Source: Ructibacterium sp. (GTDB taxonomy: Bacteria > Bacillota > Clostridia > Monoglobales > Monoglobaceae). From it: a DNA stretch of 64,000 nucleotides. Shown piece by piece: positions 20,304 through 51,268 of the stretch. Within the stretch, counting starts at the first letter, position 1. Every line of letters begins with the position of its first letter. Both the position numbers and the translations under genes were made by a program. Location: contig JAZNCG010000029.1 in NCBI GenBank assembly GCA_045587405.1, forward strand, positions 677-64,676, read 5' to 3'. The notes under the pieces were generated by a model that saw nothing but the letters and a program-made list of their open reading frames with translations, made no database searches and had not been told where the DNA came from.

Positions 20304-20314
20304 AGTATTGATAT

Positions 20315-20713: not shown

Positions 20714-20720
20714 TTCAGTT

Positions 20721-23488: not shown

Positions 23489-23511
23489 AATTGCTTTGAT
23501 TGGTTAGGATT

Positions 23512-27903: not shown

Positions 27904-28650
27904 TTATTCGATGAGTTCGATTCGTTCCGCAAAGACATCTCCGTTTATGAACTTATCTGTCGGCTCATATCCAAACCTTGACATAAATTCCATCTTCGCT
28001 TCTCTTGAGGTAAATGACAGGGTTATGAAGCTGTCCGCTTCCGCTGCTTTCTCTTCGGCTTTCTCCCTTATCTGAGCCTTTGCCTGTTTCACGGCTTCTT
28101 TCTTCTGTTCGTTCAGTTCTTCCACAGGTCTCTGCATTTCCTCAATGTCCTGCTTCATCACATCCACCTTCGGGACATCTATCTTCACGCCAAAGACAGC
28201 AAGGTCAAGATTCGAGAAGCCGGCTCGCTTGGGGTCTATCTGATTCAGCAGCACCTTGACTTTTGGCTCGTTCCATTTTCCCTGAGCCGATGGGTTGTTC
28301 ATGAAGAAGTTGATTTCTATCTCCGTCTTCTGGTCAACATCTATAAGCTCGACCTTGACAGGGTAATCATTCTCAGGATAGTGCGCCATGTCATCGAGAA
28401 GGGCTATCTTCTGATGTCCTGACACGATTGTATATCCCGTCTGCTTGTTCACGATTATACCACCGAGAAGACCGAAATCTTTCAAGCCTCTCTTCAGGGT
28501 CTTTTTCGCATTTTCATCTATCTCACGGGGATTGTAGTCTGCCGGATGAATCTCTGAACGCATCAAGGTCACTGTCTCTGATGCTGTCAATATGAATTGC
28601 AGCCATTCAGGTATTCCACCTGCTTCAGCTGCCTGTGATTTCTTTGCCAT
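27904..28650 (-). CDS. ParB/Srx-like N-terminal domain protein
   Basis: HPADYNPR, IIVN..TG..IVSGHQ motifs. Confidence 0.85.
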   Translation of the reverse strand: MAKKSQAAEAGGIPEWLQFILTASETVTLMRSEIHPADYNPREIDENAKKTLKRGLKDFGLLGGIIVNKQTGYTIVSGHQKIALLDDMAHYPENDYPVKVELIDVDQKTEIEINFFMNNPSAQGKWNEPKVKVLLNQIDPKRAGFSNLDLAVFGVKIDVPKVDVMKQDIEEMQRPVEELNEQKKEAVKQAKAQIREKAEEKAAEADSFITLSFTSREAKMEFMSRFGYEPTDKFINGDVFAERIELIE

Positions 28651-28720
28651 ATATTTCTATTATTCTTGATTCTATGTTTAATCCTTAATAAACTCTGGAG
28701 ATATAATAATATATATTATA

Positions 28721-29410
28721 TTACTCTTCCCCTCGGTGTTCAGCTTTGTAGAGTATTATTTCAGCCTGTGGAAAGGCTTCGAGAATCTTCTTGAGGTCTT
28801 CCGGGTAATGCTGACGGAGGTACAGGAAACATTCTTCACTGAATGTCAGGCCCTGCGACTTCTGCCGTGTGGAGTACCGGACAGGCTCCGGCAATCTGTT
28901 CTGCTTCAGATACGCCAGCACCTCATTGTTGCCCCACCTTGACAACGGATATACATTCTTCGTCTTGGGGTGAATCGCCTGAAGCTCGTACTCTTTGCCC
29001 TTCAGCATTATGCCCCTGTTCATGTTGTCAGACTGCTTCATTCCGTACAGGCAGTAATCTATGCCGAACTTCAGACGGCAATTCTCTGCCACATCGCTGA
29101 ACTTCATCAGTTTCACATCCGGCTGGGGCTGACAGTACAGACCTGTTTTCAGGGTATAGGTGAGATTCCAATGTGGCACTTCATGAAACTCCACATTCGG
29201 ATATCTCAGCTTGGAATACTCTATGTACTTGTTGATGTGTTCCAGACCTTTCACAAAGTACATATACACACAAACCACTCTCCTGAAGTGCGGAGCAACA
29301 AGGTCGAGAAGAGCGATGCTGTCCTTGCCTGCACTATAGAAGAGAATGACTGAATCCGTCTTCTGACGGACCCAGTCAAGGACTGCTTGGGTATGTTCCC
29401 TGTTTGTCAT
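28721..29410 (-). CDS. PAPS-reductase-like (PP-loop) protein
   Basis: YSAGKDS PP-loop, GMKQSD..R and YPLSRW motifs. Confidence 0.85.
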   Translation of the reverse strand: MTNREHTQAVLDWVRQKTDSVILFYSAGKDSIALLDLVAPHFRRVVCVYMYFVKGLEHINKYIEYSKLRYPNVEFHEVPHWNLTYTLKTGLYCQPQPDVKLMKFSDVAENCRLKFGIDYCLYGMKQSDNMNRGIMLKGKEYELQAIHPKTKNVYPLSRWGNNEVLAYLKQNRLPEPVRYSTRQKSQGLTFSEECFLYLRQHYPEDLKKILEAFPQAEIILYKAEHRGEE

Positions 29411-29413
29411 GGC

Positions 29414-29572
29414 TTAACCTGCTGCCAAACCAAGACCACTACGGAGGTCACGATACACCGTTCTGCGAGATACATATCTTCCACCATGCGAGAGCGCACC
29501 GCCTGAAGATGTACTCAGTCCACGCCTACCACCTCGGTAGCCGGATGTCGAATAGGTACTTCTGTTTCCCAT
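29414..29572 (-). CDS. 52-aa Gly/Arg/Ser-rich basic peptide
   Basis: Manual translation MGNRSTYSTSGYRGGRRGLSTSSGGALSHGGRYVSRRTVYRDLRSGLGLAAG; fills the gap between operon genes. Confidence 0.7.
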   Translation of the reverse strand: MGNRSTYSTSGYRGGRRGLSTSSGGALSHGGRYVSRRTVYRDLRSGLGLAAG

Positions 29573-29592
29573 AACGCACTGAATTAAAAAGG

Positions 29593-30000
29593 TTAAACAT
29601 TGGAATCTATGATTGCACCCAGCTTGTAGTCAATCTGAGCGGAAACATATTCTTTGCCCTTGTACTTGTACACCCTTGCATAGGTGTTCCCCTTGTCGTC
29701 CTCTTCTGTGAGGATGAAGATTTCAGCCTCCTTGACAGCCACGACAACCTCCGGGCTGCCGGACTTATCTGCCGTCTTCAGACGGAGTGCATCATATTTG
29801 AGAGGTCTGACATCTATCTCAACCTCATCAGGAACTTCATCATAGGTCTTGTACACCTTTGAAGGGTCGGATTTGTCGAAATACTCGATGTACTTCTGAG
29901 ATGTCTGTGGGCGGATTTCTCTTGTAATGGTGGTCTTCTCGCCCGATACCACCTCGGCAAGCTGCTCTGGCTTCACCGTCAAAGTCAAAATTTCTTTCAT
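29593..30000 (-). CDS. ASCH-domain protein
   Basis: LTLTV...SGEKTTITREIRP motif. Confidence 0.7.
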   Translation of the reverse strand: MKEILTLTVKPEQLAEVVSGEKTTITREIRPQTSQKYIEYFDKSDPSKVYKTYDEVPDEVEIDVRPLKYDALRLKTADKSGSPEVVVAVKEAEIFILTEEDDKGNTYARVYKYKGKEYVSAQIDYKLGAIIDSNV

Positions 30001-30027
30001 TTCTTTTGCTGTTTATGGTGTAAGTTG

Positions 30028-30101
30028 TTGCAGGGGCAGGCATCGAACCTGCGACCTCAGCCAAAGCCACGGCTGCGAGCTGCCAACTGCTCTACCCTGC
30101 G
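30028..30101 (-). ncRNA. Initiator-tRNA-like element with aberrant anticodon loop
   Basis: Cloverleaf: CGCAGGG acceptor with C1:A72, D-arm GAGC/GCTC, stem CAGCC/GGCTG around 8-nt GTGGCTTT, T-arm GCAGG-TTCGATG-CCTGC. Confidence 0.7.
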
Positions 30102-30110
30102 GTGTAGGTG

Positions 30111-30118
30111 CAAAAGTA
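30111..30118 (-). promoter_or_regulatory. -7 box of the putative late-operon promoter
   Basis: TACTTTTG fits TAnnTTTG, about 10 nt before the tRNA-like element. Confidence 0.6.
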
Positions 30119-30280
30119 TCGACAAAGGGCAGGGCTTCAGGTCTTTGACCTGACCTTATTCGTGAATAACGCCCGTATATTCACCGATTAAAGCCGAACA
30201 GGGGCAAGACAAAAAGAAGATAGGGCAAAGCCTGTAAGACCTTGCCCCGCCCGAATGGGTGCGCCCGATTGGGCTGTGTG

Positions 30281-30796
30281 TCAGATGAAATTCAGATTTG
30301 AGTAGAAGCAATCGCTATAGCGAACATAATTGCCGAACATCTTTATATTACCCTTGTCTGTTATAAATGCGAATCGTGACCCACCGATAACGCCCGAAAC
30401 TGCCTTTTTGAATTTGCCCGAATTGATACCGCTGCACTCTATCTCAGGCAGAAGAACATTTCTGAAAGCCGTTTCGCTGTCTGTCATGTCACCGTCAGGC
30501 ACAAGCGACAAAACGCCATTATGAGCGAAAGAAACGCCCGTGTTTTCATCTCTGAACGGGTGACAGTTCGCAAGCCTTATGCTGCCATGCGTGGCAAATC
30601 TGAAATGAATCACTGCCGGCACCTCTGATTTTGCCACACTTTGAAGCTCTTTATAAAACCGCTTAAAGCTCATTGACTTGAAGACCTTGCCAGGCACTGC
30701 GAAGCCGAAGCCGTCTGGGTTTCTCTTTGCACATCTTGAAATGATTTCGTAAGGGGGCAACTGTGCCCCCTGTGGCTTTACTATGATTATACACAT
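30281..30796 (-). CDS. Class II glutamine amidotransferase
   Basis: N-terminal Cys (MC), NPDGFG, HFRFATHG, HPF, AHNG, TDSE motifs. Confidence 0.92.
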   Translation of the reverse strand: MCIIIVKPQGAQLPPYEIISRCAKRNPDGFGFAVPGKVFKSMSFKRFYKELQSVAKSEVPAVIHFRFATHGSIRLANCHPFRDENTGVSFAHNGVLSLVPDGDMTDSETAFRNVLLPEIECSGINSGKFKKAVSGVIGGSRFAFITDKGNIKMFGNYVRYSDCFYSNLNFI

Positions 30797-30816
30797 AACT
30801 GATATATATTTAATTA

Positions 30817-31737
30817 TTAAAACACCTCAAAGACCTCTTTTCTACCCTTGTAGAATGATTTCAGACGGTTTGTCAAAAAAGGCAATTCGTCTATTGTCGT
30901 TGCTGTCAAAGGCTCTTCACTGCTCAGGCTGTACTGTAAGAAGCAACTCAGAAACTCAACCCAATTTCTAATTTTCTCGAAATTTGTCGTACCGTTGTGC
31001 TGTCTGAACTCTATCGTTTTATGAGTGTTGTACGCCATTGCATTGACCTTGAAATATCTGTCATTATCAAAGCCATAGAGCTGTATCTCTCGAATCGTAT
31101 CACAGTCGCCCCCTCTCAGCCTTTCTGCGACCTGTGCCATGCCTTTGCAGTATGTGTTATTTCGCCTGCTGTTTGGCATGAAGCTGTCGATTATTGGCTC
31201 TATAGCTGCATAGTTCATGATAATGCGCTGATACTGCTTTACAGTGAACTTTGAAGCCCCGAAATGAACATGAAGACCGCAAGACCTGTTAACCTGTGCC
31301 CCTGCTTCATTTATAACCTCGCAAACAGTCTTCAGGCTGTCAAGGTTTCGCAAGATTGGCGAAACTACCTCACAGCTGTTCGAGCCTGTAATCGAGCTGT
31401 CTGAACCGAGTTTGTAAGATGTCTTGCTGTCGTGATGATTGTAGCCTGATATATGAGCCTGAAGACCTCTTCTTTCAATCGCTGCCCTGACCGCCTCTCT
31501 GTCGATGTTGAAACATTCGATTTCAACGCCTATAGTAAAACGCCTTGCCCCTCTTGGGGTTGCAGATGTTAAGGCTGCCCCCCCCTGTGACATGAGCTGC
31601 ACACCTCTAACCTGATTGTAGAAAGTGTTAGCTTCATAGACTGTACATTTCAATTCGTTGCAAAGCCTGTGAATCTTGCTTGCCTTTGTACCTCTGTCAA
31701 GAACTATCGCCTTAACCTCGTCAAAAAATGTAGCCAT
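30817..31737 (-). CDS. Amidoligase (COOH-NH2 ligase, Amidoligase_2 family)
   Basis: GVEIEC, D.SI, EVVSP, SCGLHVH, TIEFRQH motifs. Confidence 0.9.
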   Translation of the reverse strand: MATFFDEVKAIVLDRGTKASKIHRLCNELKCTVYEANTFYNQVRGVQLMSQGGAALTSATPRGARRFTIGVEIECFNIDREAVRAAIERRGLQAHISGYNHHDSKTSYKLGSDSSITGSNSCEVVSPILRNLDSLKTVCEVINEAGAQVNRSCGLHVHFGASKFTVKQYQRIIMNYAAIEPIIDSFMPNSRRNNTYCKGMAQVAERLRGGDCDTIREIQLYGFDNDRYFKVNAMAYNTHKTIEFRQHNGTTNFEKIRNWVEFLSCFLQYSLSSEEPLTATTIDELPFLTNRLKSFYKGRKEVFEVF

Positions 31738-31750
31738 ATCTTTGTTTTGT

Positions 31751-32068
31751 TTAGTTGTTAAACTCTCTGCAATTCGCTATTGTCTGAGGCTTGAAATACA
31801 TGTCTCTTTCAACTTTGAGACAGCCCCAAACTCTAAGGCTTTCAAGCTGTGAAAGGGTGAAATAGCCATATTCTTTTTCACCTGCATTGTCAATCACCCC
31901 AAAAAATTCATAGTCGTTTGTGCCTATCTTGTTAGCTTCAAGCACATACCATGTGTAATTTGCAAGAAAGAACTTGCAGATGATTGTAGCTTCTTTCTTT
32001 TTGCCATCTTGTGAATAGATAGGGTACTTTGCTAATCTGTTAGCGATTTCTTTTGTAATGAGTTTCAT
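31751..32068 (-). CDS. DUF2958-like protein
   Basis: KFF..TWYVLE, EYGYFTLSQLE, VERDMYF motifs. Confidence 0.75.
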   Translation of the reverse strand: MKLITKEIANRLAKYPIYSQDGKKKEATIICKFFLANYTWYVLEANKIGTNDYEFFGVIDNAGEKEYGYFTLSQLESLRVWGCLKVERDMYFKPQTIANCREFNN

Positions 32069-32115
32069 AATGCTGTACTTTATTATTATTTATATATATC
32101 TTCATTTTGTTTCTG

Positions 32116-32223
32116 CAAATGTAGATATAAATAAATTAACATGCAAGTATTTTTCAAAAATAATTTATACAAATCTTAATTTTATAGAAAAATTTGCATT
32201 TATAAATAAAGTGCGTATATTTG
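32116..32223. promoter_or_regulatory. Divergent promoters (amidoligase operon / HTH gene)
   Basis: Minus-strand TACATTTG at 32116-32123; plus-strand TTTG 32193-32196, 19 nt, TATATTTG 32216-32223. Confidence 0.7.
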
Positions 32224-32249
32224 CACAACTTTTATAATAATTTAGATTT

Positions 32250-32534
32250 ATGAACATTTTAGAGACAGTAAAACAGATTTGCAGGGTCAGGGGCATGTCT
32301 CTTGCTGATGTCGCCTTGAAAATGGGTGTACCTGCTTCTTCTTTATCTCAGATATTGAGAGGCAACCCCACACTTTCAAAACTCAACGACATAGCCAACG
32401 CCCTAAATGTGCCGGTAGCTGAACTGCTCGCAGAAGGCAGCACCAGAGCGCAGGTAGAGTGTCCGCACTGTGGCAAGACATTCCCACTCGACATCAAGGC
32501 AGCCAAGGAGGTGCCGGCAGATGGAGAAGCCTAA
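32250..32534 (+). CDS. XRE-family HTH regulator with C-terminal CPHCG zinc knuckle
   Basis: GNPTLSKL..IANALNV and CPHCGK motifs. Confidence 0.88.
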   Translation: MNILETVKQICRVRGMSLADVALKMGVPASSLSQILRGNPTLSKLNDIANALNVPVAELLAEGSTRAQVECPHCGKTFPLDIKAAKEVPADGEA

Positions 32535-35200: not shown

Positions 35201-35289
35201 TTTCTTGACCTCCTTTTCCTTGGTTTACGCATCTGAGCAGTTAATCTCCGAGCCTCCGGGAATATAGTGACCGCAGTCCATACATCGTT

Positions 35290-35595: not shown

Positions 35596-35956
35596 CTTTG
35601 TTTCTCTCATAATGTTCACATCCCTCGGACACTCTCGGCATGGCAACCCATCCATCATTACACAAGGCATCCTGCCAACCCTCCCACATGTGCTTACTAT
35701 TGTAAAGCAGTTCACCTGAATGTCCGCATTTATGTTTATCAAAATACTTTTCTGCATCGGCTGAATATGGGTATTCACCACATACGACAGCTTTATGCTG
35801 TTCGATTTCATCCTGATAGTGACGGCACGAATAGCACAGACAGATGTTGCAAGGATTCTTCTTGCAGCTCTTTTCATGAGCTATCATAGCTGGCTTCGTT
35901 TTGCTGACCTTTCCGCAGAACTCACATTCAAATGTTGGTTTATCGTAAATTTTCAT
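35573..35956 (-). CDS. Cys-rich zinc-finger-like hypothetical protein
   Basis: CEFCGK...HEKSC and further Cys pairs. Confidence 0.65.
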   Translation of the reverse strand: MKIYDKPTFECEFCGKVSKTKPAMIAHEKSCKKNPCNICLCYSCRHYQDEIEQHKAVVCGEYPYSADAEKYFDKHKCGHSGELLYNSKHMWEGWQDALCNDGWVAMPRVSEGCEHYERNKDEEIYRP

Positions 35957-37801: not shown

Positions 37802-38065
37802 TCAAAAGAAGTTATCCGGTGTCACATATCCGTATTCCTCCATTTCTTCCAGAGCATATCGCAACGGAAGCTCCATATTGCCATACACAAAACACAGGTA
37901 ATATGTGAAAGGCTCTTCAGCTGGGCACAGTTTGAGTTTCGGTTTGTCTCCCTCAAAGCGATGCCAGCACATCTTACTTTCAATCTCGGACATCTTACTT
38001 TGCAGCTCCTGCAAGTGGCTATCAGCCTCGGCTATCAAAGCCCTGAATTTGTTCATCTTTGCCAT
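37802..38065 (-). CDS. Hypothetical protein
   Basis: 87 aa, coupled to neighbours. Confidence 0.55.
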   Translation of the reverse strand: MAKMNKFRALIAEADSHLQELQSKMSEIESKMCWHRFEGDKPKLKLCPAEEPFTYYLCFVYGNMELPLRYALEEMEEYGYVTPDNFF

Positions 38066-38562
38066 TATTCTTTCCTTTTGAATCGTGCAATATCTTTATC
38101 CTCGAACATCCCGTGAGAGGGGAGCTTTCGCAAGGTCGTGAAGACCTTTGCAAAAGCTTTGTTATCCTTCACGGTCCTGTCAACATAGAGCATGAGCAGA
38201 CGGACAATCTCATTTGCATCATCGTTGAAGCCGTCATAGGCTTCAGGATTGCCGTCCGGATTATCCTCATCTCTTCCGATGCCCCATGTCGCATTTGCAA
38301 TCTGTGGGTCAATTCGGTTGTAGAAGTGGAATGAAGCAGCCTTGACAGCCTTGCAATAGTCATTCAGACCTGTCAAAAGCTCATTTTCTCCGGCTATCAG
38401 TCCATGTTTCCTAAACTCAGACTTTACTCTCCGATGTACATTCTCGACAATCGACTGACAGGCTGAAGCCACTATATACATCAGCTTCATTTCCTGCGGA
38501 ATGGTCGTCCTGTCGATGTCATCATGAATCGCCTTTCTCGTTTTTGCATCAACCGCTGCCAT
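38065..38562 (-). CDS. Hypothetical phage protein
   Basis: 165 aa, operon context. Confidence 0.65.
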   Translation of the reverse strand: MAAVDAKTRKAIHDDIDRTTIPQEMKLMYIVASACQSIVENVHRRVKSEFRKHGLIAGENELLTGLNDYCKAVKAASFHFYNRIDPQIANATWGIGRDEDNPDGNPEAYDGFNDDANEIVRLLMLYVDRTVKDNKAFAKVFTTLRKLPSHGMFEDKDIARFKRKE

Positions 38563-38568
38563 ACCGCA

Positions 38569-39180
38569 CTACTTTCTAATCAGGAGAAAATCAAGGAAAA
38601 TGTCAGCGAACTGCTTCGCTGCGTAGATGGCGAGGTCTCGTGTCTTAAAGCAAAGCCGAGAGCCGAAGGACGCAGGCGTACGCGAGGGAGCGTAAAGCGA
38701 GAGCGAGAAAGCGAGAACGGCAGGAAGACCATAGAGAGACATATCGACATCTGTTGGTACTTCATCGGAACACAATTCACCTTTTGTCGGCTTATGGTCA
38801 TATAGATAATACCAGACATAATAGACCGTAGTCTTGCAGTCTTGCGGATTCTCCCAGCCCTCATTAAGTGCTGCACAGATAATACGGCAGGCGAGGTAAG
38901 AAACTATGTCACAGGATTCTTTGTCGCTGATGGTACCTTCTTTCGTCATCATGTCACGGATAGCTATGTACTGCTTCACAAGCACATGATTATAGCCGAG
39001 GGCATTTAGGGCATCGTTGAAAGTCTTGATGCGTTCCGTCACGGGAACCTGAAGATTGGACTTGCCGAACATCTCTTCGAGAAGATTCTTGATGTAAGGA
39101 GTAACCTCATCATGGTTACTATGATAAGCTTGTCTTGCCTGTGCAAGGGCTGTTGCTGGGTTAAATGAGTTCTTTTCCAT
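38569..39180 (-). CDS. DGR target 2 (remote): non-structural phage protein with a near-C-terminal variable region
   Basis: ERIKTF..ALNEGW..GSRLCFKT family pattern; contains VR2. Confidence 0.85.
   Translation of the reverse strand: MEKNSFNPATALAQARQAYHSNHDEVTPYIKNLLEEMFGKSNLQVPVTERIKTFNDALNALGYNHVLVKQYIAIRDMMTKEGTISDKESCDIVSYLACRIICAALNEGWENPQDCKTTVYYVWYYLYDHKPTKGELCSDEVPTDVDMSLYGLPAVLAFSLSLYAPSRTPASFGSRLCFKTRDLAIYAAKQFADIFLDFLLIRK
38647..38716 (-). repeat. DGR variable repeat VR2
   Basis: 70 nt aligned without gaps to TR 5411-5480; 15 mismatches, all at TR adenines. Confidence 0.92.
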
Positions 39181-39202: not shown

Positions 39203-40322
39203 TTATTTGAACATTACTGTTATTCCATACCTATCTCTTTCTATTTCCACCCACTCTATTTCAACACCATAGTCATCTTTGACCGATTCCAATGCTGCTA
39301 TTAACATCTCGCTATCAATAGCTGAAATTCCATATCTTGGGGAATTGAGGTCATAGTCAAAAGATACAGATGTAGAGCCATGAGACCAGCCGAGAACATA
39401 GCCGTCTATTATCTCCTGCAACAAGCCTTTCACTGTATTCTGTTTCAGTTTATAAGCCCAAATCTTCTTGGCTATTGCCACCTTGATTCTAAAGATTATC
39501 TTTCTCATAAATAACTATACCTCCTTTCTTTCCTCGACCTTGAACACGGTCCAGATGAATGTCATCGGCTCAACAGCACATTGATAACCGGGAACAAATT
39601 CCCTCGTTTTGAAATAGTCCAAAAGTTTCTGCACGGTCTCTTCCCGTGTGAACTCAGCTTTATGGATATGGAACACTCCACCGTGTTCTCTCGACTGCTC
39701 TGAGCTGTCGATATTGAAGAGCTGCCTGAGTTCACTGATGGCCGTCTCTCTTGTGATTTCCTTTTTCTTTGATTGCGTTTTACTCATATTGTCAGAATAA
39801 TGTTTGGCTGTCGTAGATGTCCTTGTATTCGGATATTTGAGACAGCAGTTTCTTGCATTTGGCTATCAGGGCATCTGTACTCTCGACCTTTTCGCCATCG
39901 TCAGGCTCGTACCCTCCGTGATATTTCCTGATTCTTTCCATCTCCCGTTTCACATATTGCTCAACGATGCAAAGCTCATTGAAGACTGCTTCCTTTTCGG
40001 AGCCAAAGCTCTCTTTGTGCTTGAGAGAGACACCGCTGCCACCGCCCGAATGATTGACATTGTAATAGTGAGCTGCTATCCATTTCCCGTCAAGATTTAT
40101 GGCGGTCTTTATTTCCGCACACCAGCCGGACTTTCCAAACTCTATTTTGTTTGGATTCAGGCATATATCATTGATATTAAACTGAAAGCCATGAAGCTCT
40201 ACGACAGGTTCTCTTGAGCTATCGTTGGGATGTTCTTTGAGCCAAGCCCACCACTCTTCACGGGTAAATGTGCGTCCGAGTGCCAATGATGTAAAAAATA
40301 CTTCCTTGCTCATGGCCATCAT
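39203..40322 (-). CDS. Three hypothetical proteins (39203-39508, 39515-39787, 39792-40322)
   Basis: Tightly packed co-directional ORFs. Confidence 0.6.
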
Positions 40323-41251
40323 TCTTCAGCATCGAACAGTGATTCATCTTCACCCTCATTCTCTACCTGCACATCTTCCGGAACTTCGGCAGTTTCTTCC
40401 GCTTCTTCAGTATTTCTCTTGGTACGATAGGCTTCCGTATATTCCTTGCCGATAACTGCGGAACATTTCACCTTTGTGGCTGATGTGATATTGACCTGAA
40501 GGTCATCTTGAAGCATAGCGACTTCCAAAGCTGTCAGCTCTTTTTCCTTTGCTTCTTTCTTGAGCTGTTCACGGACATATTTCTCTATCTGAGTTTTGGC
40601 ATCATCCACATCCTTTGCATAAATCAGGAATCTGTAATCATCCTGTCTGTCTTCGTTGTAGATGACAGTAGTCTCAACGGAATAGAACGAATAAACGGCT
40701 TTCTTTTCCTCTTCGACCTCATCTTCAGGCTTCTCAACTCCATTGGCATCTTCCACCAGCTTTACGGTATCATCATCGAAGATAAAGATGTGATTCTTGA
40801 ACTCCTTTGCAGATGTGATTGAGAACACATGGTCATAGCGAAGCTCCACATAGTCCTCGACAATAGCCAACGCCTGAAAGATGTTCTGAGCCAACAGGAG
40901 AAACTTATGCTTCTTCAGGAGCTGTACGGTAACGCACCAAGGCTGAACGCCCCAGCCGGAGCCGAACTTTCCAAGTCTCTTCTGGTCTGAGACTTTAATC
41001 TCTGACAGGTCGCCAATCTGAAGGTGAAAGTTTATCACGGCCATCTGGTCCTCTTCGAGGTATGTTCCTCTTTGCAGGACTATCTCTGTCCGTTCAATCT
41101 CGATGACTTCGCCCGTATCTTTGTCGAGGAACTTTTCAGGCCACTTGCGGTAGAGGTTTTCAACGAGATATTTTCCTATCATCTGTTCCGGGTCAGTGGT
41201 AACGATGATGTTCTCATTCAGTTTTGTCTGAACTTTCTTTGCAGTTTCCAT
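40319..41251 (-). CDS. Acidic hypothetical phage protein
   Basis: 310 aa; DKDTGEVIEIER motif. Confidence 0.65.
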   Translation of the reverse strand: METAKKVQTKLNENIIVTTDPEQMIGKYLVENLYRKWPEKFLDKDTGEVIEIERTEIVLQRGTYLEEDQMAVINFHLQIGDLSEIKVSDQKRLGKFGSGWGVQPWCVTVQLLKKHKFLLLAQNIFQALAIVEDYVELRYDHVFSITSAKEFKNHIFIFDDDTVKLVEDANGVEKPEDEVEEEKKAVYSFYSVETTVIYNEDRQDDYRFLIYAKDVDDAKTQIEKYVREQLKKEAKEKELTALEVAMLQDDLQVNITSATKVKCSAVIGKEYTEAYRTKRNTEEAEETAEVPEDVQVENEGEDESLFDAEE

Positions 41252-41262
41252 GTGTCTATGAT

Positions 41263-43833
41263 TTAGTTATCCAATAATTCCAAGTCGATGACCTCTTCTT
41301 CAGCTTCGTAAGCCATGAAGTCGAACAGGGTAGGTGAGGTCGCTTCCATTTCCGCTTCCCTGAGATATTCAAGCCCGTCTTTCCAATAGTCTGCGTTCAG
41401 CTCTGTTGACAGACCTTTTCGCCCCATCTTTATAGCACAATACGGCACCGTCTGTATTCCTCCGAATGGGTCAAAGACCAAATCGCCTTTGTTCGAGTAC
41501 CGCTCTATCAGCCTTTCCACGATGTCAAGCTGGAGAGGACAGACATGCATCTGTAGGCACTTCTGCGACTGCCTTGAGTTGAGTGTCCGCATCCTTGTGA
41601 CATCATCCCAGATGTAAGGGCTTCGGCTTGACGGGTCAACGGCCATGAATGTCTTCGGCAGCTTGTCGTATGCTTCAAGTTCCTCGGCAAACGCCACATG
41701 GTCCTCGAAGTTGTAGAGGTGTTCTGCCGTGAACTTCCTGAAATATCTCCGGATGCCTCCTATATCCATGCTCTTGACATCGTTCATGGAGAGAAGCCTG
41801 TTACCGCTCGACTTCCAATCTGCGTGAGCATCAATCTGCCATCTTGCAAGGCTGTATTCCTCCTTTGCCTTGGTCACAGGCACATCGGCATAAGCCCTTG
41901 AGGTGTCTGTCGGAAGCTTGCGGAACAGCAGCACATATTCAGGACAGCCAACCCCCATCTTCGAGCCGTCTTTCCTCATTTCGGAGTAACCGAGCCTGTA
42001 GGTCTGATTGTTTTCCCTGACTACATCCGTGTCGATGGTGATGCGACCCATGTATCTGAAGCCGTGTCTGATGTAGTGGAACACGCACATGTCGCTGAAA
42101 GGGTCAATCGTAGGCATACCGTCACCTGTGGCATTTCCGAAAAGCACTCTATCCTTGACATGAACGCAGCACAATCTGCCCGGCTTGAGTATTCGCATGA
42201 GTTCAGGTGTCAGGTAGTCCATCTGCTTGAAAAATTCATCGTTGTCGGAGTTGAAGCCGAAATCGTTGTAGCTGGCAGTGTACTCATAGTGATTGCTGAA
42301 AGGCACGGAGGTCACAATCAGGTCAACGGAGTTGGCAGTCATCTGCATACACTCAAGCACATTGTCGTTGTTGATTGCGTAGTATGTTTCCCCCTTTGCT
42401 TCCTGTCTGAGCGAGAACATGTAACGCATGAGCTTCTGTTTCACATCGAGACCGAAAAGACCGTTTTTCCTGATGATGTCTGCCATCTTCTCCACCATCT
42501 TGTTGTGCTGCTCCCACTTCGCCATGAACGACTTGAAGATTTCAGCTTCGCTCTCTGCATAAACGAGGTACAGGTCAACGGGGTACTTCTGCATGAAGCG
42601 GTGGATTCGTGCGATAGCCTGAAACTTATCGTTGAATCTGTAGTCAATGAACATTATCGCCTTGTGGCAGTGATATTGGAAGTTCAGACCTTCACCGAGC
42701 ATCTCCGGCTTCGCTGCAAGATACTTGAGCTTTCCGTCCTTGAAGTCCATGATGTTCTGGTCGGCTTCCTCTTCATCCTGTGAGCCATATACAGCCTTGC
42801 AGCCCGGTATCGCCTTACAGAGTGCCTGTCTCTCATCTTCGAGGTCATGCCAAAGGAGGAAATGGTCATCTTTGTTCTCAGGTCTGTTGATAATCTCTAC
42901 CACACGGGCAATCTTATTGCTCATGCTGTCACGCCTTTCCCTCGCAGCCTGATTCAGACCGAGGGCAGCTTCACGGAACATCTTGCCCTGCCCGTCCTTA
43001 TCGGTACCGGCTGTCGAATGGTCAACACTTACGATTTCCTCATGCACTCGCAGTTCAGGAAGCTGGTAGCCTACATCGGGATAGCCGAGGTCAGAGGGCT
43101 TTGTGAGGAACAACGCCCATGTTGCGACCCATAGCCAGAACTCATTTTCCTTGTTGGGATATAGTGTCAGGTTGTTAGCCTTTGTGCTGTCTCTCTTGAA
43201 GAATCTTGTCAGAGCCTGCCCCGTGTCCATGATGCCGAGATAGCCGGAATAGTGGATAAGTTCTTTGAGCTTGTTAGGTGACGGGGTAGCTGTCGCCACA
43301 AAGCGGTACTTCACTTTCGAGAACAGGGGAAGAAACTCCTGAAATGTCTTCGTGCCGTAACTTCTGAGGACGGAAGCTTCGTCAAGTGATGTCGCTGTAA
43401 AATAGTCGGGGTCAATTCTCACGCCATCCTCGCCATCTCGCACCCTCTCGTAGTTGGTTATCATGATTGGGGTCGGGCAAGCCCTGACCTCTTCCATGTT
43501 ACGCACATAGGTCACATTCATGCCGAGGTGCTGTTCAGCCTGTGTAAGGAACTCCACGACAACCCTTTTAGGGCAGACGATGAGACCGTAGCCACCCTCA
43601 CGGGCGATGATTACTCTGAGGATTTCGAGCTGGGTCACTGTCTTCTGCATACCGAAGCTGCTGAAGATTGCCCTGCAACCACCGAGGACAGCCCACTTCA
43701 CCGTGTCACGGACATGTGGGAAGAGTGTCGGGGAAAGTTCGCTGTCGCTGACCTCGAAGCCTGTCTGAGAGCTGACGGCCATCTTGTTCTGCAAGAACTC
43801 ACGATATGGGATTTGTGTCTTATTCTGTGTCAT
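41263..43833 (-). CDS. SNF2-like helicase fused to an N4-C/N6-A DNA methyltransferase
   Basis: GMQKT, LDEAS, ATATP, GLNFQ helicase motifs; TSVPF and FDPFGG MTase motifs. Confidence 0.88.
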   Translation of the reverse strand: MTQNKTQIPYREFLQNKMAVSSQTGFEVSDSELSPTLFPHVRDTVKWAVLGGCRAIFSSFGMQKTVTQLEILRVIIAREGGYGLIVCPKRVVVEFLTQAEQHLGMNVTYVRNMEEVRACPTPIMITNYERVRDGEDGVRIDPDYFTATSLDEASVLRSYGTKTFQEFLPLFSKVKYRFVATATPSPNKLKELIHYSGYLGIMDTGQALTRFFKRDSTKANNLTLYPNKENEFWLWVATWALFLTKPSDLGYPDVGYQLPELRVHEEIVSVDHSTAGTDKDGQGKMFREAALGLNQAARERRDSMSNKIARVVEIINRPENKDDHFLLWHDLEDERQALCKAIPGCKAVYGSQDEEEADQNIMDFKDGKLKYLAAKPEMLGEGLNFQYHCHKAIMFIDYRFNDKFQAIARIHRFMQKYPVDLYLVYAESEAEIFKSFMAKWEQHNKMVEKMADIIRKNGLFGLDVKQKLMRYMFSLRQEAKGETYYAINNDNVLECMQMTANSVDLIVTSVPFSNHYEYTASYNDFGFNSDNDEFFKQMDYLTPELMRILKPGRLCCVHVKDRVLFGNATGDGMPTIDPFSDMCVFHYIRHGFRYMGRITIDTDVVRENNQTYRLGYSEMRKDGSKMGVGCPEYVLLFRKLPTDTSRAYADVPVTKAKEEYSLARWQIDAHADWKSSGNRLLSMNDVKSMDIGGIRRYFRKFTAEHLYNFEDHVAFAEELEAYDKLPKTFMAVDPSSRSPYIWDDVTRMRTLNSRQSQKCLQMHVCPLQLDIVERLIERYSNKGDLVFDPFGGIQTVPYCAIKMGRKGLSTELNADYWKDGLEYLREAEMEATSPTLFDFMAYEAEEEVIDLELLDN

Positions 43834-48940: not shown

Positions 48941-49906
48941 TCAGCCGTCCAGCTGCTTCAGAAGATTCTTCAGACCTCTGCCGTCCCGAATGGTCTTGCC
49001 GGTAGCCCAGCCACTGTAAGGAAAGAACTTCACCGTCTTGCCCTTGTGGGTGAACTCTATTCGGGTGCCGTCTCTGTAGGTTATCTCATAGCCTCTGCCC
49101 TCAAGCTGTGCGACTGCATAGGCTATGCGTTCAGGCTCAAGCCGTGCCTGTCTCTCGGTGTCAAGTCGTGCCATATCTACATATATCTTTCTTCTCGCTC
49201 TCGTTCTGCCCTCTCTTCACAGGCATCGAGATATGCGTTATAATCCTCGTCCGCATCATAGTCCGGGTCTCTCTCAGGGTCTGCCGGGTGCATGTAAAAA
49301 TCTCGTTTCGGGTGCCAGCTCATAGCTCTCTGATATTATGGGTTTGTCTTCGGGGTTTTGTGCAGCGGTCTGGTACTGTGACCGCTGCCGTTCTCTCATT
49401 GCCCTGTAGCCCTCTTTCAGGCTCTCGAACTCTTCAGGCGTTAGTCTCATTCTTTTCAGATAGTTCGGGGTGCAGCCTTTCAAATAAGTCGCTGACCGCT
49501 ATAGCTGTCGGCAAGACTGCGACCATGTAAATGATATTGAAAAGGTACTGTACGCCCTGAGACTGACCGAAAACGGTCACCATGCTGTCTGTCACTGTGA
49601 TGTAGCCACATGCCAAGACTGCGACAAGGGCGAGGGCGTTGATGATTGCCTGCTGTCTGTGATTGCGTTTCATTGCCTGATATTTTAGAGGTTTACCGTT
49701 TCGCCTGTGGCAACTGTCGCCACTATTGCGATGTCGTGAAAATTGGGGCGTTTTGGGTCAAATTTCATGAGGTACAGGGTGCAGCCTGTCTCTATGCTCT
49801 TCTTTTGCATCGCTGCTGTCGCCTCTGCCTGTGACATGCCGTCAACAACTGCGACCCGTTCTCTCTGGGCTGCTGAATTGAGCTTCACGAACTGATATGT
49901 AGCCAT
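48941..49906 (-). CDS. Cluster of small early hypothetical ORFs (48941-49174, 49434-49673 membrane, 49685-49906)
   Basis: ORF track, co-directional. Confidence 0.55.
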
Positions 49907-49918
49907 GATTTCAGGGGT

Positions 49919-50239
49919 TTAGAGGGGTAAGACATTTGCAACCTTGAAGCATCTGAACTCTTGCCTTTCAGTGTCAAAATAGACCTGCACTGTAGGGTTT
50001 TTCAGTCGCCTGTCATTGCCCTCTATTGCCGGCATGAGTTCGCTCTTGAGTGTGCCGTATGCTTCTCTGATTGAGCCGTCAACTTTCTGATAATAGAATT
50101 TGACTATACCTTTGAGCATCTGCTTCTTTAACTTGAAGACCTGCCAAGCCTGTTTGAGAGCTTCAGAAAGCTCGAAGCCGTTTCGCTTGACGAACTGCCA
50201 AGCCATTTGCATGATAGTGCGTAAATCAGTCTTTTTCAT
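49919..50239 (-). CDS. SH3-like beta-barrel (WYL_2/DUF2693-like) protein
   Basis: VKFYYQKVDGSIREAYGTL and YFDTERQEFRCFK. Confidence 0.8.
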   Translation of the reverse strand: MKKTDLRTIMQMAWQFVKRNGFELSEALKQAWQVFKLKKQMLKGIVKFYYQKVDGSIREAYGTLKSELMPAIEGNDRRLKNPTVQVYFDTERQEFRCFKVANVLPL

Positions 50240-50260
50240 GTCGTCAGTCTTTAGAGGGGT

Positions 50261-50701
50261 TTAGATTGTTTCAAGTGAGTTTCTGAGGTCTGCGAGGGCT
50301 TTAGCTATCTTCTTTGCATTGCGAAGCACCTTTTGACCTGTTTCGCTTTCATAAGCCTGTTTTGATTCTTTTATAGAAGAATGTGAGAGAGCTTCAAAGC
50401 CCTGTGCCATCACTTCACATCTTTCAAGTTTTGCCATCATTGACTTGTAGTCGCTCTTGATAGCTCTTAAATAGGTTTCGTGTGTCATAGCTGTAGGGGT
50501 TTACTTCTGAAAATACTTTGTCATGTCTTCTACAGTGTAGTAGTCAGGCTCATAGATGCCCTGCTTTTTGTCTTCTACCTCAAGCACATTCTTTATATAA
50601 TCGTGTGCAGCTTCAGGCGTTGAGAACTTCTTTGAGGTGTAGGCTTCAGAATCGCCCTTCTCGACCTCTTCTCTAACGAAAATCATAAATACCTTTTTCA
50701 T
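50261..50701 (-). CDS. Two immediate-early hypothetical ORFs (50261-50488, 50501-50701)
   Basis: First genes after the leftward promoter. Confidence 0.65.
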
Positions 50702-50738
50702 CTTCTTTGTTGTTTGTTGTTGTTTGCTTTTCTTTTGT

Positions 50739-50777
50739 TATCTTTGAAACGAATTTCAAAACGACTTTGCAAAGGTA
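50739..50777. promoter_or_regulatory. Face-to-face lysogeny/lysis switch promoters
   Basis: Plus TATCTTTG at 50739-50746, minus TACCTTTG at 50770-50777. Confidence 0.65.
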
Positions 50778-50851
50778 AACAAAGTTTTCATATCTGCAAA
50801 CTATTTTGTGAAAAAGTTTACATTTTGTTTGCAAAAAAGTTTTTACGACCT

Positions 50852-51268
50852 ATGTACATAAATGTAAGTCAGAGATTTATACAGGTGATAGAACACCTGA
50901 AAGATAGTAAACAGCTCAAGAATCAAGCTGAATTAGTTACCATTTTAGAGGTTTCAAAGGGGTATGTTTCGCAGCTTGTAAACGGAACAAGAGAGCCAAG
51001 CGAGACAGTGGTTAGCAAATTAGTAAACTATTTTCCTGAGATTAACGCCCACTGGCTTTTTACCGGTGAAGGAGACATGCTGAACACTCAGCCGAAAAAT
51101 TCTCAGGTAATTGGGAACAACAGCGGAACAGCGATAAACGGAGACGGGACGGTAGTTCACCCAGCCGGAGACAGCCGGACCATAGAGCGGATGCAGAATC
51201 AGATAGACGAACTTCTCGCACAGAACGGAAAGCTCCTTGTCATCATTGACAGATTGACACAGAAATAA
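50852..51268 (+). CDS. CI-like XRE repressor (no S24 peptidase domain)
   Basis: HTH (ELVTILEVSKGYVSQLVNG) and INAHWLFTGEGDM; divergent from early genes. Confidence 0.85.
   Translation: MYINVSQRFIQVIEHLKDSKQLKNQAELVTILEVSKGYVSQLVNGTREPSETVVSKLVNYFPEINAHWLFTGEGDMLNTQPKNSQVIGNNSGTAINGDGTVVHPAGDSRTIERMQNQIDELLAQNGKLLVIIDRLTQK

What the first reader, a model, noticed from the sequence alone, without database searches (positions are those of the whole stretch)
49265..50983. Second large GGA/TCC void covering the genetic switch and immediate-early genes
I found no GGA or TCC between the TCC at 49262-49264 and the GGA at 50984-50986, about 1.7 kb where roughly 40 are expected. The void spans the face-to-face promoters, the first early ORFs and the 5' part of the repressor. 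Independent recurrence at the genes expressed first after injection supports a link between motif avoidance and pre-replicative transcription, and nominates these small ORFs as anti-defence or take-over genes.
Basis: partly seen in the sequence, partly recalled or inferred. Interest (0 to 1): 0.85.

Follow-up and report, generated by a model that had tools for sequence, protein, structure and literature searches.

The report
GGA/TCC-free early operon of a phage
The first 1.5 kb of a gut Bacteroidota prophage's early operon, together with its control region, contains no GGA or TCC on either strand; hundreds of related phages keep the same gap (one lineage bans CCC/GGG instead), which points to an undescribed activity that reads a three-base DNA word.

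Summary
No GGA or TCC occurs between 49262 and 50984 (1,722 bp; 38-52 expected). No other trinucleotide behaves this way, and apart from the window's first void the 1.8-Mb assembly has no gap above 469 bp.

The void is kept by selection. Gly and Ser contents are normal, and GGA and TCC codons are replaced by synonyms. Recoding the five void genes gives 26.7±4.2 sites against 0 observed. In 37 of 38 dereplicated relatives the largest GGA/TCC gap lies on the same WYL_2 gene, across 36-57% GC and over non-homologous flanking ORFs.

Outside the voids the word is neutral (O/E 0.93). Both orientations are depleted equally, so the target is probably double-stranded DNA.

Every phage with a void belongs to one lineage that carries an ASCH-like/PP-loop/ParB-like cassette ahead of its terminase genes. 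Four cassette-less Bacteroidota phages, one of them holding a 63%-identical WYL_2 orthologue, have no void. Neither do two Lactobacillus phages with a distant cassette.

One Prevotellaceae lineage bans CCC/GGG on the same modules, so the word can switch.

My best reading (about 0.4) is a phage-written mark on packaged DNA, with immediate-early operons kept free of it. No modification has been shown.

The scan had already reported this window's first void (e1-5463044) and a similar island in another genome (e1-3409407).

The parts
49265..50983 (.). GGA/TCC-free stretch (void 2), 1,719 bp
   Evidence: 0 sites against 38-52 expected. This is the second-largest gap in the window and in the whole assembly.
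50770..50800 (-). Bacteroidota-type promoter match (-33 TTTG, -7 TAnnTTTG) pointing left into the early operon
   Evidence: one of only 6 matches in 64 kb (1.5 expected). The first ORF starts at 50701. This is a pattern match only.
50713..50746 (+). Bacteroidota-type promoter match pointing right towards the repressor gene, face to face with the leftward one
   Evidence: TTTGCAAA-type repeats lie between and beside the two matches (sequence). This is a pattern match only.
50853..51268 (+). HTH (Cro/CI-type) repressor candidate. The ORF is open from TTG 50714, with a likely ATG at 50853. Only its first ~130 nt are motif-free.
   Evidence: HTH_3 7.8e-6, Phage_CI_repr 1.3e-3, and phrog_4/phrog_8 repressor/regulator. 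GGA/TCC returns at 50984 and is dense from 51071.
50501..50701 (-). ORF of 66 aa, first gene of the leftward operon, orphan
   Evidence: no family hit, and no homologue in any of the 13 phage genomes compared.
50261..50488 (-). ORF of 75 aa, orphan
   Evidence: The only hit is a sub-threshold Abi_C match (E 1.1e-3, below the cut-off).
49919..50239 (-). WYL_2 / DUF2693 SH3-barrel protein (106 aa), the one conserved gene of the void
   Evidence: PF10902 1.7e-23; phrog_1086 1.6e-30; 199 relatives in IMG/VR and 55 phage records.
49685..49906 (-). ORF of 73 aa, orphan
49434..49673 (-). ORF of 79 aa with a hydrophobic core (possibly a membrane protein), orphan
   Evidence: translation.
49177..49323 (-). 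Acidic 48-aa ORF. The left border of the void (49262) falls inside it, and no terminator lies there.
48941..49174 (-). First downstream gene with normal motif use (phrog_28096). It is followed by phrog_3657, a RecE-like exonuclease, a DnaD-like loader, SSB and a SNF2-methylase.
50178..50983 (.). CCG/CGG-free stretch nested in the promoter-proximal half of void 2. It shares the right border, CGGA at 50983.
   Evidence: Void 1 has the same feature (31491-32412). Many relatives show a co-located CCG/CGG gap.
29916..32461 (.). First GGA/TCC void, with the same architecture: HTH gene (+) facing a leftward operon (DUF2958, Amidoligase_2, GATase) plus the leader of the late operon
27904..30000 (-). 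ASCH-like / PP-loop (PAPS-reductase-like) / ParB-like cassette at the head of the late operon. It is the candidate writer of the presumed mark.
   Evidence: PAPS_reduct 5.4e-6 and a weak ParB_N hit; homologues in BS-TP2 are annotated ASCH, PAPS reductase and ParB. PP-loop fold, nearest NcsA/TtuA/LarE.

Best explanation
Void 2 is the immediate-early transcription unit of a temperate Bacteroidota siphophage: face-to-face promoters followed by the first ~1.5 kb of the leftward operon. Selection keeps it completely free of one three-base DNA word. I think the word is read on double-stranded DNA by a factor that this phage lineage itself encodes. The likeliest candidate is the ASCH-like / PP-loop / ParB-like cassette at the head of the late operon. 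I propose that it marks packaged DNA at GGA/TCC, by base modification or nicking. After injection the marked DNA would be a poor template. Only the word-free operons would fire at once, and the rest of the genome, including the HTH repressor genes, would become fully readable only after replication makes unmarked copies.

Shown: the void, its maintenance by synonymous substitution, its recurrence, its restriction to one phage lineage, neutrality of the word elsewhere, and a switch of the word in one sub-lineage.

Inferred: that the factor is phage-borne, that it is the cassette, that it leaves a covalent mark, and that the mark hinders transcription.
For: 1. The void is real and under selection. 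It holds 0 sites against 38-52 expected. Gly (5.6%) and Ser (6.2%) contents are normal, with GGA replaced by GGC/GGG and TCC by TCA/AGC. Recoding at fixed protein sequence expects 26.7 +/- 4.2 sites.

2. It recurs. In 37 of 38 dereplicated WYL_2 loci the largest GGA/TCC gap lies on WYL_2; the next best word reaches 18 of 38. The pooled density falls to about 0-1 per kb around the gene start while control words stay flat. Relatives range from 36 to 57% GC, and the flanking ORFs are not homologous.

3. Both orientations are depleted alike. Across 39 prophage loci the amidoligase gene has 2.9 sense GGA and 3.1 sense TCC per kb, and WYL_2 has 3.7 and 2.7, against about 19-24 and 11-15 per kb in the PAPS, ParB and TerL genes. 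This fits recognition of double-stranded DNA.

4. The word is neutral elsewhere. At codon junctions outside the voids O/E is 0.93, in the middle of the 0.58-1.30 range for all 32 words. This is not genome-wide restriction avoidance.

5. The void tracks the lineage rather than the host. GGA-type voids occur in phages of Riemerella and of more than ten Bacteroidales genera. Cassette-less Bacteroidota phages have none: TCUEAP2 (WYL_2 63% identical), Hankyphage, B40-8 and SJC03. Amidoligase homologues outside this phage group have normal counts. The only non-structural genes shared by all void-bearing phages are the PP-loop gene, the ParB-like gene and WYL_2, plus ASCH-like and HTH genes in most.

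6. The word can switch. Two related Prevotellaceae prophages carry CCC/GGG voids on the same amidoligase and WYL_2 modules (0 against 13.6 and 1 against 8.6 expected), with GGA/TCC at expectation there. Their amidoligase relatives at 57-71% identity are mostly GGA-type, and their PP-loop and ParB proteins sit on their own well-supported branch.

7. The depletion upstream of the cassette stops at the start of the PP-loop gene. HTH regulator genes are not depleted. Both fit an operon-level, time-of-expression constraint.

8. There is precedent for a ParB-like partner plus a PP-loop or base-exchange enzyme acting on DNA: DndB/DndC, BrxP and DpdB/DpdA (PMC12839542).
Against: No modification, nick or restriction resistance has been shown for any member. 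The RAP44-like phage paper searched holds no restriction or modification data.

All void-bearing phages share one head module, so any lineage trait could be the cause.

Two Lactobacillus phages with a distant PAPS-reductase/ParB cassette before terS have no 3- or 4-base void.

Several Bacteroidales prophage loci are only weakly depleted although most of their genomes hold a cassette-type PP-loop gene, and 5 of 40 cassette loci show no upstream depletion.

As far as I recall, the known phage DNA modifications (glucosyl-hmC, Mom, 7-deazaguanine, phosphorothioate) do not block host RNA polymerase, so the proposed harm is unprecedented.

The PP-loop protein is only generically similar to sulfurtransferases (TM about 0.5) and has just two invariant Cys.

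The void's left border lies inside an ORF without a terminator, so no transcript end explains it. Recombination and replication genes, which should also be needed before replication, are full of the word.
Confidence: 0.4

Rival explanations
1. A host-encoded factor such as a nickase, a DNA ADP-ribosyltransferase, a glycosylase or a DNA-binding silencer acts on incoming DNA at a 3-base word. The phage keeps its first-expressed, anti-defence-like cassettes free of the word so that they can still be transcribed and neutralise or repair the attack.
For: The purged modules look like early counter-defence cargo. Amidoligase_2, class-II GATase and DUF2958 are, from memory, typical of the leading regions of conjugative elements, and they sit with hypervariable small ORFs. 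The purge is absolute, as expected if one hit disables the template. The word differs between lineages (GGA against CCC), as defence specificities do. Neutrality elsewhere fits a saturating, reversible insult.
Against: The same word, GGA/TCC, is used by phages of Riemerella and of more than ten Bacteroidales genera, whereas host defence specificities normally vary between strains. Other phages of Bacteroides and Elizabethkingia show no void. The host-like assembly has normal GGA/TCC density everywhere, so it would need self-protection at about 47,000 sites. As far as I know, no restriction system with a 3-bp site is known.
Confidence: 0.2
2. A phage-encoded DNA-binding protein, for example the ParB-like protein, the ASCH-like reader or WYL_2, binds GGA/TCC sites without leaving a covalent mark. 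It coats, silences or activates most of the genome, while the word-free operons stay outside its control and answer only to their HTH regulators.
For: This rival shares the lineage restriction, the equal depletion of both orientations, the neutrality elsewhere and the word switch with the best explanation. From memory, ParB-family proteins are known to spread along DNA and silence flanking genes (P1 ParB).
Against: As far as I know, a 3-bp word is far shorter than any known ParB loading site. Nothing shows that these proteins bind DNA. This rival does not explain the PP-loop enzyme. TCUEAP2 has WYL_2 without a void, so WYL_2 alone is not the factor.
Confidence: 0.15
3. The constraint acts on RNA. 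Early transcripts must lack GGA (the Shine-Dalgarno core, and a CsrA- or RegB-type target) and UCC (the anti-SD core, and a MazF-mt3-type target) because a ribonuclease or RNA-binding protein acts early in infection.
For: The voids follow operons rather than fixed distances, and the regulator genes on the other strand are mostly spared. From memory, Bacteroidota handle Shine-Dalgarno pairing in an unusual way.
Against: Two independent RNA words that happen to be exact reverse complements would have to be purged to the same degree. The switched lineage again bans a reverse-complement pair, CCC and GGG. Promoter and upstream DNA and all three reading frames are purged as well.
Confidence: 0.07
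4. The void is a mutational footprint. A cytosine deaminase with an NCC preference (APOBEC3G-like) acting on transcribed, single-stranded DNA has eroded TCC/GGA from the most heavily transcribed region.
For: All the words seen in voids contain CC/GG: TCC, CCC, CCG and perhaps GCC. AAA/TTT is 1.8-2.0-fold enriched in both voids, and AGA codons and Phe are raised.
Against: Replacement is mainly by synonymous codons, including transversions (GGA to GGC, TCC to TCA or AGC), at normal Gly and Ser content. TTC/GAA and TCT/AGA are not enriched. The void is absolute with sharp borders. Other phages of the same hosts lack it.
Confidence: 0.05
5. The void is due to chance, local composition, or a module imported from a donor with odd word usage.
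For: The void is slightly more AT-rich than the rest of the phage (GC 0.44 against 0.465).
Against: Markov and recoding nulls expect 27-38 sites. The void recurs in 37 of 38 relatives at 36-57% GC. No genome-wide GGA-free donor was seen.
Confidence: 0.01

Closest known systems
Restriction-site avoidance and 'anti-restriction first' strategies (T7 gene 0.3/ocr; ardA in plasmid leading regions)
   Same: A short DNA word is counter-selected in a mobile element, and the genes concerned are the first to be expressed after entry.
   Different: The word here is 3 bp and asymmetric. It is purged absolutely but only locally (1.7 and 2.5 kb) and is neutral in the rest of the genome (O/E 0.93). No enzyme with this site is known. 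The same word is used across many host genera.
Short-motif DNA modification by phages (Mom; DpdA/DpdB 7-deazaguanine) and Dnd / BREX type 4 phosphorothioation
   Same: These are element-borne writers with 2-4 base specificity. A ParB-like partner (DpdB, DndB) works with a PP-loop or base-exchange enzyme (DndC, BrxP, DpdA) (PMC12839542). The cassette here pairs a PP-loop enzyme with a ParB-like protein.
   Different: No TGT/DpdA hit was found among the ORFs scanned. DndD and DndE were not sought. No modification has been demonstrated. As far as I know, mark-free early islands have not been described in print for those systems.
Earlier scan finding e1-3409407 (VGA/TCB-free first gene of an uncultured phage with a DpdA-type system)
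   Same: A ~1-kb early gene is purged of a three-letter word that is common elsewhere in the genome, and it was read as a 'modification-proof' early cassette.
   Different: It concerns another genome, another word and another candidate writer. It is an AI note whose bold reading was later priced at 26/100. I did not test it here.
Face-to-face promoter switches of temperate phages (coliphage 186 pR/pL type; from memory)
   Same: An HTH repressor gene and the lytic early operon are transcribed from closely facing promoters with repeated operator-like words between them.
   Different: The promoters are of the Bacteroidota type (TTTG / TAnnTTTG) and are known only as pattern matches. No such switch is known to sit in a word-free island.
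APOBEC3/AID footprints in viral genomes
   Same: An NCC/TC-type word is depleted in viral DNA, with a link to transcription.
   Different: Here the depletion is absolute and sharply bordered, is achieved by synonymous changes of all kinds, and shows no excess of deamination products.

Membership tests
Classical restriction-site avoidance | The word is under-represented relative to composition and coding constraints | tested here: met
   Locally there are 0 sites against 26.7-52 expected.
Classical restriction-site avoidance | Avoidance extends over the whole genome | tested here: not met
   Outside the voids codon-junction O/E is 0.93, mid-range among all 32 words.
Classical restriction-site avoidance | The word equals the site of a restriction enzyme of the host | not testable with these tools
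   The host is uncertain (the contig has 45% GC in a 37% GC bin), and I know of no enzyme with a 3-bp site.
Dnd-type phosphorothioation module | DndC-type PP-loop sulfurtransferase | tested here: inconclusive
   The second PAPS_reduct protein (34331-35200) hits TIGR03183 DndC at E 1.6e-4, far below the cut-off. The cassette protein hits only CysD/CysH-type models weakly. Its fold is nearest NcsA/TtuA/LarE at TM about 0.5.
Dnd-type phosphorothioation module | DndD (SMC-like ATPase), DndE and a cysteine desulfurase are present | not tested
   No dedicated search was made. None appeared among the annotated ORFs.
Dpd / phage 7-deazaguanine system | DpdA (TGT-family transglycosylase) | tested here: not met
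   No TGT-family hit in the 30 ORFs scanned against Pfam or the 10 scanned against NCBIfam. Not every ORF was scanned.
Dpd / phage 7-deazaguanine system | ParB-like partner (DpdB) | tested here: inconclusive
   The ORF at 27904-28650 gives only a weak ParB_N hit (E 3.8e-3, below the cut-off). Its homologues in RAP44 and BS-TP2 are annotated as ParB-like nuclease.
WYL_2 / DUF2693 (PF10902) | Profile match above the gathering score | tested here: met
   83.1 bits against a cut-off of 26.7, E 1.7e-23; phrog_1086 at 1.6e-30.
Temperate-phage genetic switch | HTH repressor facing an early lytic operon, with promoters between them | tested here: met
   HTH_3 and Phage_CI_repr hits, two facing TTTG..TAnnTTTG matches, and recombination and replication genes downstream. 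Function was not tested.
Immediate-early transcription unit | Transcribed first after injection, bounded by a terminator | tested here: inconclusive
   No terminator-like site lies at the left border. RNA-library contigs cover the whole phage evenly. No time-course data are available.

The most novel reading that the evidence does not exclude
A widespread family of gut and avian Bacteroidota phages (RAP44-like) writes a covalent mark on packaged DNA at a three-base word, using a PP-loop enzyme with a ParB-like partner. The specificity can switch between lineages (GGA/TCC to CCC/GGG). Mark-free islands act as an epigenetic timer: only the word-free, HTH-controlled operons fire from freshly injected DNA, and everything else waits for replication.
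Probability: 0.3. Interest if true: 0.9.

Novelty: new variant of a known kind. Interest (0 to 1): 0.8.

Why it matters
A three-base word purged absolutely from chosen operons, yet neutral in the rest of the genome, conserved across hundreds of phages and many host genera, and swapped for another word in one lineage, is a footprint of a sequence-specific activity that nobody has described.

If the activity is a phage-written DNA mark, it would assign a function to the very common but unexplained 'PAPS reductase + ParB' cassette found next to terminase genes. It would add a new chemistry or specificity class to phage DNA modification. It would also reveal a simple way of timing gene expression through the template itself.

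If the activity is instead a host factor, it would be the shortest-site DNA-directed defence known.

Either way the footprint gives a purely computational handle. Scanning for word-free islands finds the immediate-early or counter-defence cargo of uncultured Bacteroidota phages, and two cultured systems (Riemerella RAP44-like phages and Bacteroides phage BS-TP2) are available for direct tests.

Tried and rejected
1. RNA evidence for early or lysogenic expression. Three RNA-library runs hold the phage, but only as assembled contigs that cover 32-52 kb almost evenly. They say nothing about timing and may contain DNA.

2. CRISPR PAM avoidance. Published RAP44 protospacers at 42519-42548, 42842-42871 and 28468-28497 (PMC5006608, Table 1) lie inside GGA/TCC gaps of RAP44, and no PAM was found there. 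Rejected for that type II-C system.

3. DarT-type DNA ADP-ribosyltransferase in the hosts. PF14487 was not found in 5 genomes, but the control genomes gave no hit either, so the result is uninformative.

4. A terminator at the left border. None was found.

5. A strand asymmetry. In the pooled profile sense TCC appears to stay low farther from the promoter than sense GGA. The window itself does not show this consistently. Per-gene ratios are alike, and sense GGA is simply the commoner and costlier word to avoid.

6. A longer true motif. In leaky voids GGAY is tolerated about 3-fold more often than GGAR, and weakly depleted loci lose mainly GGAG and AGGA. In this window, however, every GGA/TCC is absent. 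Secondary depletion of CCG, CCA, GAT and GATG is only about 2-fold.

7. The nature of the PP-loop enzyme. Sequence search of solved structures finds only the CysD PP-loop, and fold search gives generic PP-loop hits.

8. The WYL_2 search of solved structures gave nothing useful.

9. Literature. Searches on IbrA/IbrB returned only unrelated papers. Searches on PAPS reductase with ParB, and on RAP44 and BS-TP2, found no data on modification.

10. GCC/GGC gaps over an S24 repressor and a DUF4062 gene in relatives. These may be compositional given the number of words and loci scanned, and I do not rely on them.

11. Correlating void strength with the presence of the cassette within Bacteroidales. 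Nearly all genomes have the cassette, so the comparison has no contrast.
Full report
**Observation.** The window has 1,766 GGA/TCC sites, one per 36 bp. None lies between the TCC at 49262 and the GGA at 50984, a gap of 1,722 bp. Only the 2,549-bp gap at 29913-32462 is longer, and the third-longest is 294 bp. No other trinucleotide pair shows anything comparable inside the phage. The window is contig C29 of a 245-contig, 1.8-Mb assembly. In that assembly the next GGA/TCC gap is 469 bp. Expected counts for the void are 47 from window density, 52 from the phage background and 38 from a Markov-1 model of the void itself. GC content is 0.44 in the void against 0.465 in the neighbouring phage DNA, so composition does not explain the gap.

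**What lies in the void.** Two Bacteroidota-type promoter matches (TTTG, 17-23 nt, TAnnTTTG) face each other at 50713-50746 (+) and 50800-50770 (-). Only six such matches occur in 64 kb, and a third precedes the HTH gene of the first void.
- To the right lies an HTH Cro/CI-type repressor candidate. Its ORF runs 50714-51268, with a likely ATG at 50853. Only its first ~130 nt are word-free, and from 51071 the word is dense.
- To the left run tightly packed small ORFs of 66, 75, 106, 73, 79 and 48 aa. The 106-aa ORF is WYL_2/DUF2693 (PF10902, 1.7e-23). The others match none of the 13 phage genomes compared, not even the closest relative, and have no significant family hits.
- The left border (49262) falls inside the 48-aa ORF, and no terminator-like site lies there.
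- Downstream genes use the word normally: phrog_28096, phrog_3657, a RecE-like exonuclease, a DnaD-like loader, SSB and a SNF2-N6/N4-methylase fusion.
- The first void has the same layout. An HTH gene on the + strand faces a leftward operon of DUF2958, Amidoligase_2 and class-II GATase. That void runs into the leader of the late operon, which starts with ASCH-like, PP-loop (PAPS-reductase-like) and ParB-like genes followed by terS and terL.

**Selection, not mutation or chance.** The void genes have normal Gly (5.6% against 6.2%) and Ser (6.2% against 6.2%) contents. GGA codons are replaced by GGC and GGG, and TCC by TCA and AGC. The word is also missing in the two non-codon frames, where about 67 of the 92 expected occurrences would lie. 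Recoding at fixed protein sequence with the phage's codon usage expects 26.7 ± 4.2 sites in the five void-2 genes (minimum 14 of 500 trials) and 46.7 ± 5.4 in the three void-1 genes, against 0 observed in each. Deamination products (TTC/GAA, TCT/AGA) are not enriched.

**Recurrence.** A search with the WYL_2 protein returned 80 IMG/VR loci.
- In 37 of 38 dereplicated loci the largest GGA/TCC gap of the locus overlaps WYL_2 ± 300 bp. The next best word, CCG/CGG, does so in 18 of 38, and most words in 0-10.
- The pooled density of both GGA and TCC falls to about 0-1 per kb from -300 to +300 of the gene start, while ten control words stay flat.
- Six whole IMG/VR genomes of relatives (four of them CheckV ≥94% complete), Riemerella phage RAP44 and Bacteroides phage BS-TP2 each have two or three depleted zones. 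One lies at the WYL_2/HTH module and one upstream of the ASCH/PP-loop genes.
- Anchored on the PP-loop gene, 48 dereplicated loci show a 3-4-fold drop from -3000 to -250 that ends at the gene start. In 24 of 40 loci the upstream-to-downstream ratio is 0.3 or less. The five undepleted loci lack the HTH, amidoligase and WYL_2 markers upstream.
- In 39 Bacteroidales prophage loci from species-representative genomes, most amidoligase genes carry 0-6 sites against 16-28 expected.
- GC content across these relatives ranges from 35 to 58%, and the flanking ORFs are not homologous, so the gap is not simply inherited sequence.

**DNA or RNA.** Sense GGA and sense TCC are depleted to the same degree. 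The amidoligase gene has 2.9 and 3.1 per kb and WYL_2 has 3.7 and 2.7, against about 19-24 and 11-15 per kb in the PAPS, ParB and TerL genes. Promoter DNA is purged as well. The switched lineage described below again bans a reverse-complement pair. Recognition of double-stranded DNA is therefore the economical reading. The HTH regulator genes are not depleted overall (18.0 and 9.5 per kb). The constraint follows the operons they face, not the regulators themselves.

**Elsewhere the word is neutral.** After within-gene synonymous shuffling, codon-junction GGA/TCC in 32 genes outside the voids has O/E 0.93, in the middle of the 0.58-1.30 range for all 32 words. This differs from classical restriction avoidance.

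**Who has a void.** I normalised each genome's largest gap as gap length times site density.

| Group | Phage (normalised largest GGA/TCC gap) |
|---|---|
| Bacteroidota phages with the cassette | this window 71, RAP44 26.8, G004 25.5, G001 21.8, BS-TP2 20.1, G031 18.2, G022 16.7, G017 14.5, G010 12.4 |
| Bacteroidota phages without a PAPS_reduct hit | TCUEAP2 7.8 (WYL_2 63% identical), Hankyphage 8.8, B40-8 10.3, SJC03 segment 6.3, a 25.7-kb faecal contig with two WYL_2+HTH modules 8.9 |
| Lactobacillus phages with a distant cassette before terS | LR1 7.4, JNU_P7 6.6 (no 4-mer void either) |

Amidoligase homologues in Proteobacteria, Actinomycetota, Omnitrophota and Hymenobacter have observed counts equal to expected. 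Two caveats apply. All void-bearing phages share one head and packaging module. The only non-structural genes common to all of them are the PP-loop gene, the ParB-like gene and WYL_2, with ASCH-like and HTH genes in most. The link to the cassette is therefore suggestive but confounded with ancestry. RAP44-type phages have been proposed as a candidate family (PMC10367356).

**The word can switch.** Two related Prevotellaceae prophages (G039 and G040, about 86% nucleotide identity) have GGA/TCC at expectation on these modules (20 against 20.7, and 16 against 14). They lack CCC/GGG instead.
- G039 has 0 sites against a Markov expectation of 13.6 over 1,182 bp covering the amidoligase gene up to the HTH gene.
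- G039 has 1 site against 8.6 expected over 876 bp covering WYL_2. G040 shows the same pattern.
- Amidoligase relatives at 57-71% identity are mostly GGA-type.
- In PP-loop and ParB trees the two phages sit on their own well-supported branch, next to a weakly depleted GGA locus and a strong GGA-type locus.

By contrast, the constancy of GGA/TCC from Riemerella to more than ten Bacteroidales genera argues against strain-variable host defences. It favours a factor inherited with the phage.

**Secondary signals.**
- CCG/CGG is absent from the promoter-proximal 800-900 bp of both voids and is co-purged in many relatives. In L186, for example, GGA is 1 against 44.7 and CCG is 1 against 30.7.
- CCA/TGG (with Trp at 0.5% against 1.4%), GAT codons and GATG are about 2-fold low.
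- In leaky voids GGAY survives about 3-fold better than GGAR.
- All strongly purged words contain CC/GG.

**Mechanism.** I commit, at about 0.4, to a phage-written mark at the word on packaged DNA. The likeliest writer is the late-operon PP-loop enzyme working with the ParB-like protein, with the ASCH-like protein possibly acting as a reader.
- The PP-loop protein has a PP-loop ATP-pyrophosphatase fold nearest the tRNA and cofactor sulfurtransferases NcsA, TtuA and LarE, but only at TM about 0.5.
- DndB/DndC, BrxP and DpdB/DpdA are precedents for such pairings acting on DNA (PMC12839542).
- If the mark hinders use of the template, only word-free operons fire from injected DNA. The marked repressor genes and late genes then wait for unmarked daughter copies. 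That would also explain why the HTH genes themselves are not purged.
- Not shown: any modification, the timing of expression, or any harm of a mark to transcription. Known phage modifications are, as far as I recall, tolerated by host polymerase.

The rivals are a host factor acting on incoming DNA (0.2), a non-covalent phage DNA-binding protein (0.15), an RNA-level constraint (0.07), a deaminase footprint (0.05) and chance (0.01).

The description of the architecture holds. The proposed orthologue test supports a link with cassette-bearing phages. 'Pre-replicative transcription', 'modified DNA' and 'anti-defence ORFs' remain inference.

The scan had already reported the first void of this window with a similar conclusion (e1-5463044), and a comparable word-free early gene in another genome (e1-3409407). 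Beyond those notes, I tested the following here:
- the codon-level evidence for selection;
- the neutrality of the word elsewhere in the genome;
- the negative controls;
- the equal depletion of both orientations;
- the exclusion of a CRISPR PAM effect (PMC5006608, together);
- the CCC/GGG switch.

Noticed in passing
L250-L252 (G039) 20085-21270 and 37994-38873; L253-L255 (G040) 22967-24145 and 34933-35804: Two related Prevotellaceae prophages carry CCC/GGG-free stretches over the same amidoligase/HTH and WYL_2 modules, while GGA/TCC is at expectation there.
   Followed up: yes
window 40319-41251 (-): A 310-aa phage protein (phrog_35807) has a 50-residue segment (aa 21-70) similar to residues 232-281 of a 1,269-aa RNA polymerase beta subunit in the PDB (9n9p_C, E 5e-7). 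It may be a polymerase-derived domain in an early or middle phage protein.
   Followed up: no
window 31491-32412 and 50178-50983: CCG/CGG is also absent from the promoter-proximal 800-900 bp of both voids. The right border of void 2 is a shared CGGA. Many relatives show co-located CCG/CGG gaps (for example L186 1850-3624, L167 2394-3696, L160 6868-7915).
   Followed up: partly
L070 2763-3697; L225 18237-19166; L065 7807-8668: GCC/GGC-free stretches of about 860-930 bp lie over an S24-peptidase CI-type repressor gene and over a DUF4062 gene in relatives. Local GC is low (0.30-0.35) and many words and loci were scanned, so this may be compositional.
   Followed up: partly
window 34331-35200 (-) and 41263-43833 (-): The phage has a second, larger PAPS_reduct-family protein (289 aa, 6e-16) and a fusion of a SNF2 helicase with an N6/N4 DNA methylase (856 aa). 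RAP44 likewise has two PAPS-reductase-like genes, one next to a small methylase gene.
   Followed up: no
window 29916-32461 and 49265-50983 (void genes): GAT (Asp) codons are 4-fold low (8 against 31 expected) while GAC is unchanged. Trp is 0.5% against 1.4%. AGA is the preferred Arg codon (28 against 12.6). GATG/CATC is 2.7-fold low.
   Followed up: partly
window as a whole (contig C29 of the assembly): The 65-kb contig has 45% GC in a 37% GC bin of 245 contigs. A 1.5-kb contig identical to part of void 1 is filed under a sheep-colon 'Clostridia' MAG (L193). The closest relatives are all in Bacteroidales bins, so the binning of this phage is doubtful.
   Followed up: no
L229, L231 (G043:C14:9789-10475, G045:C36:29195-29881): In two Bacteroidaceae genomes the cassette-type PP-loop domain lies in a 527-aa open frame (a possible fusion). 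Their amidoligase modules are only about 2-fold depleted, mainly in GGAG and AGGA.
   Followed up: no
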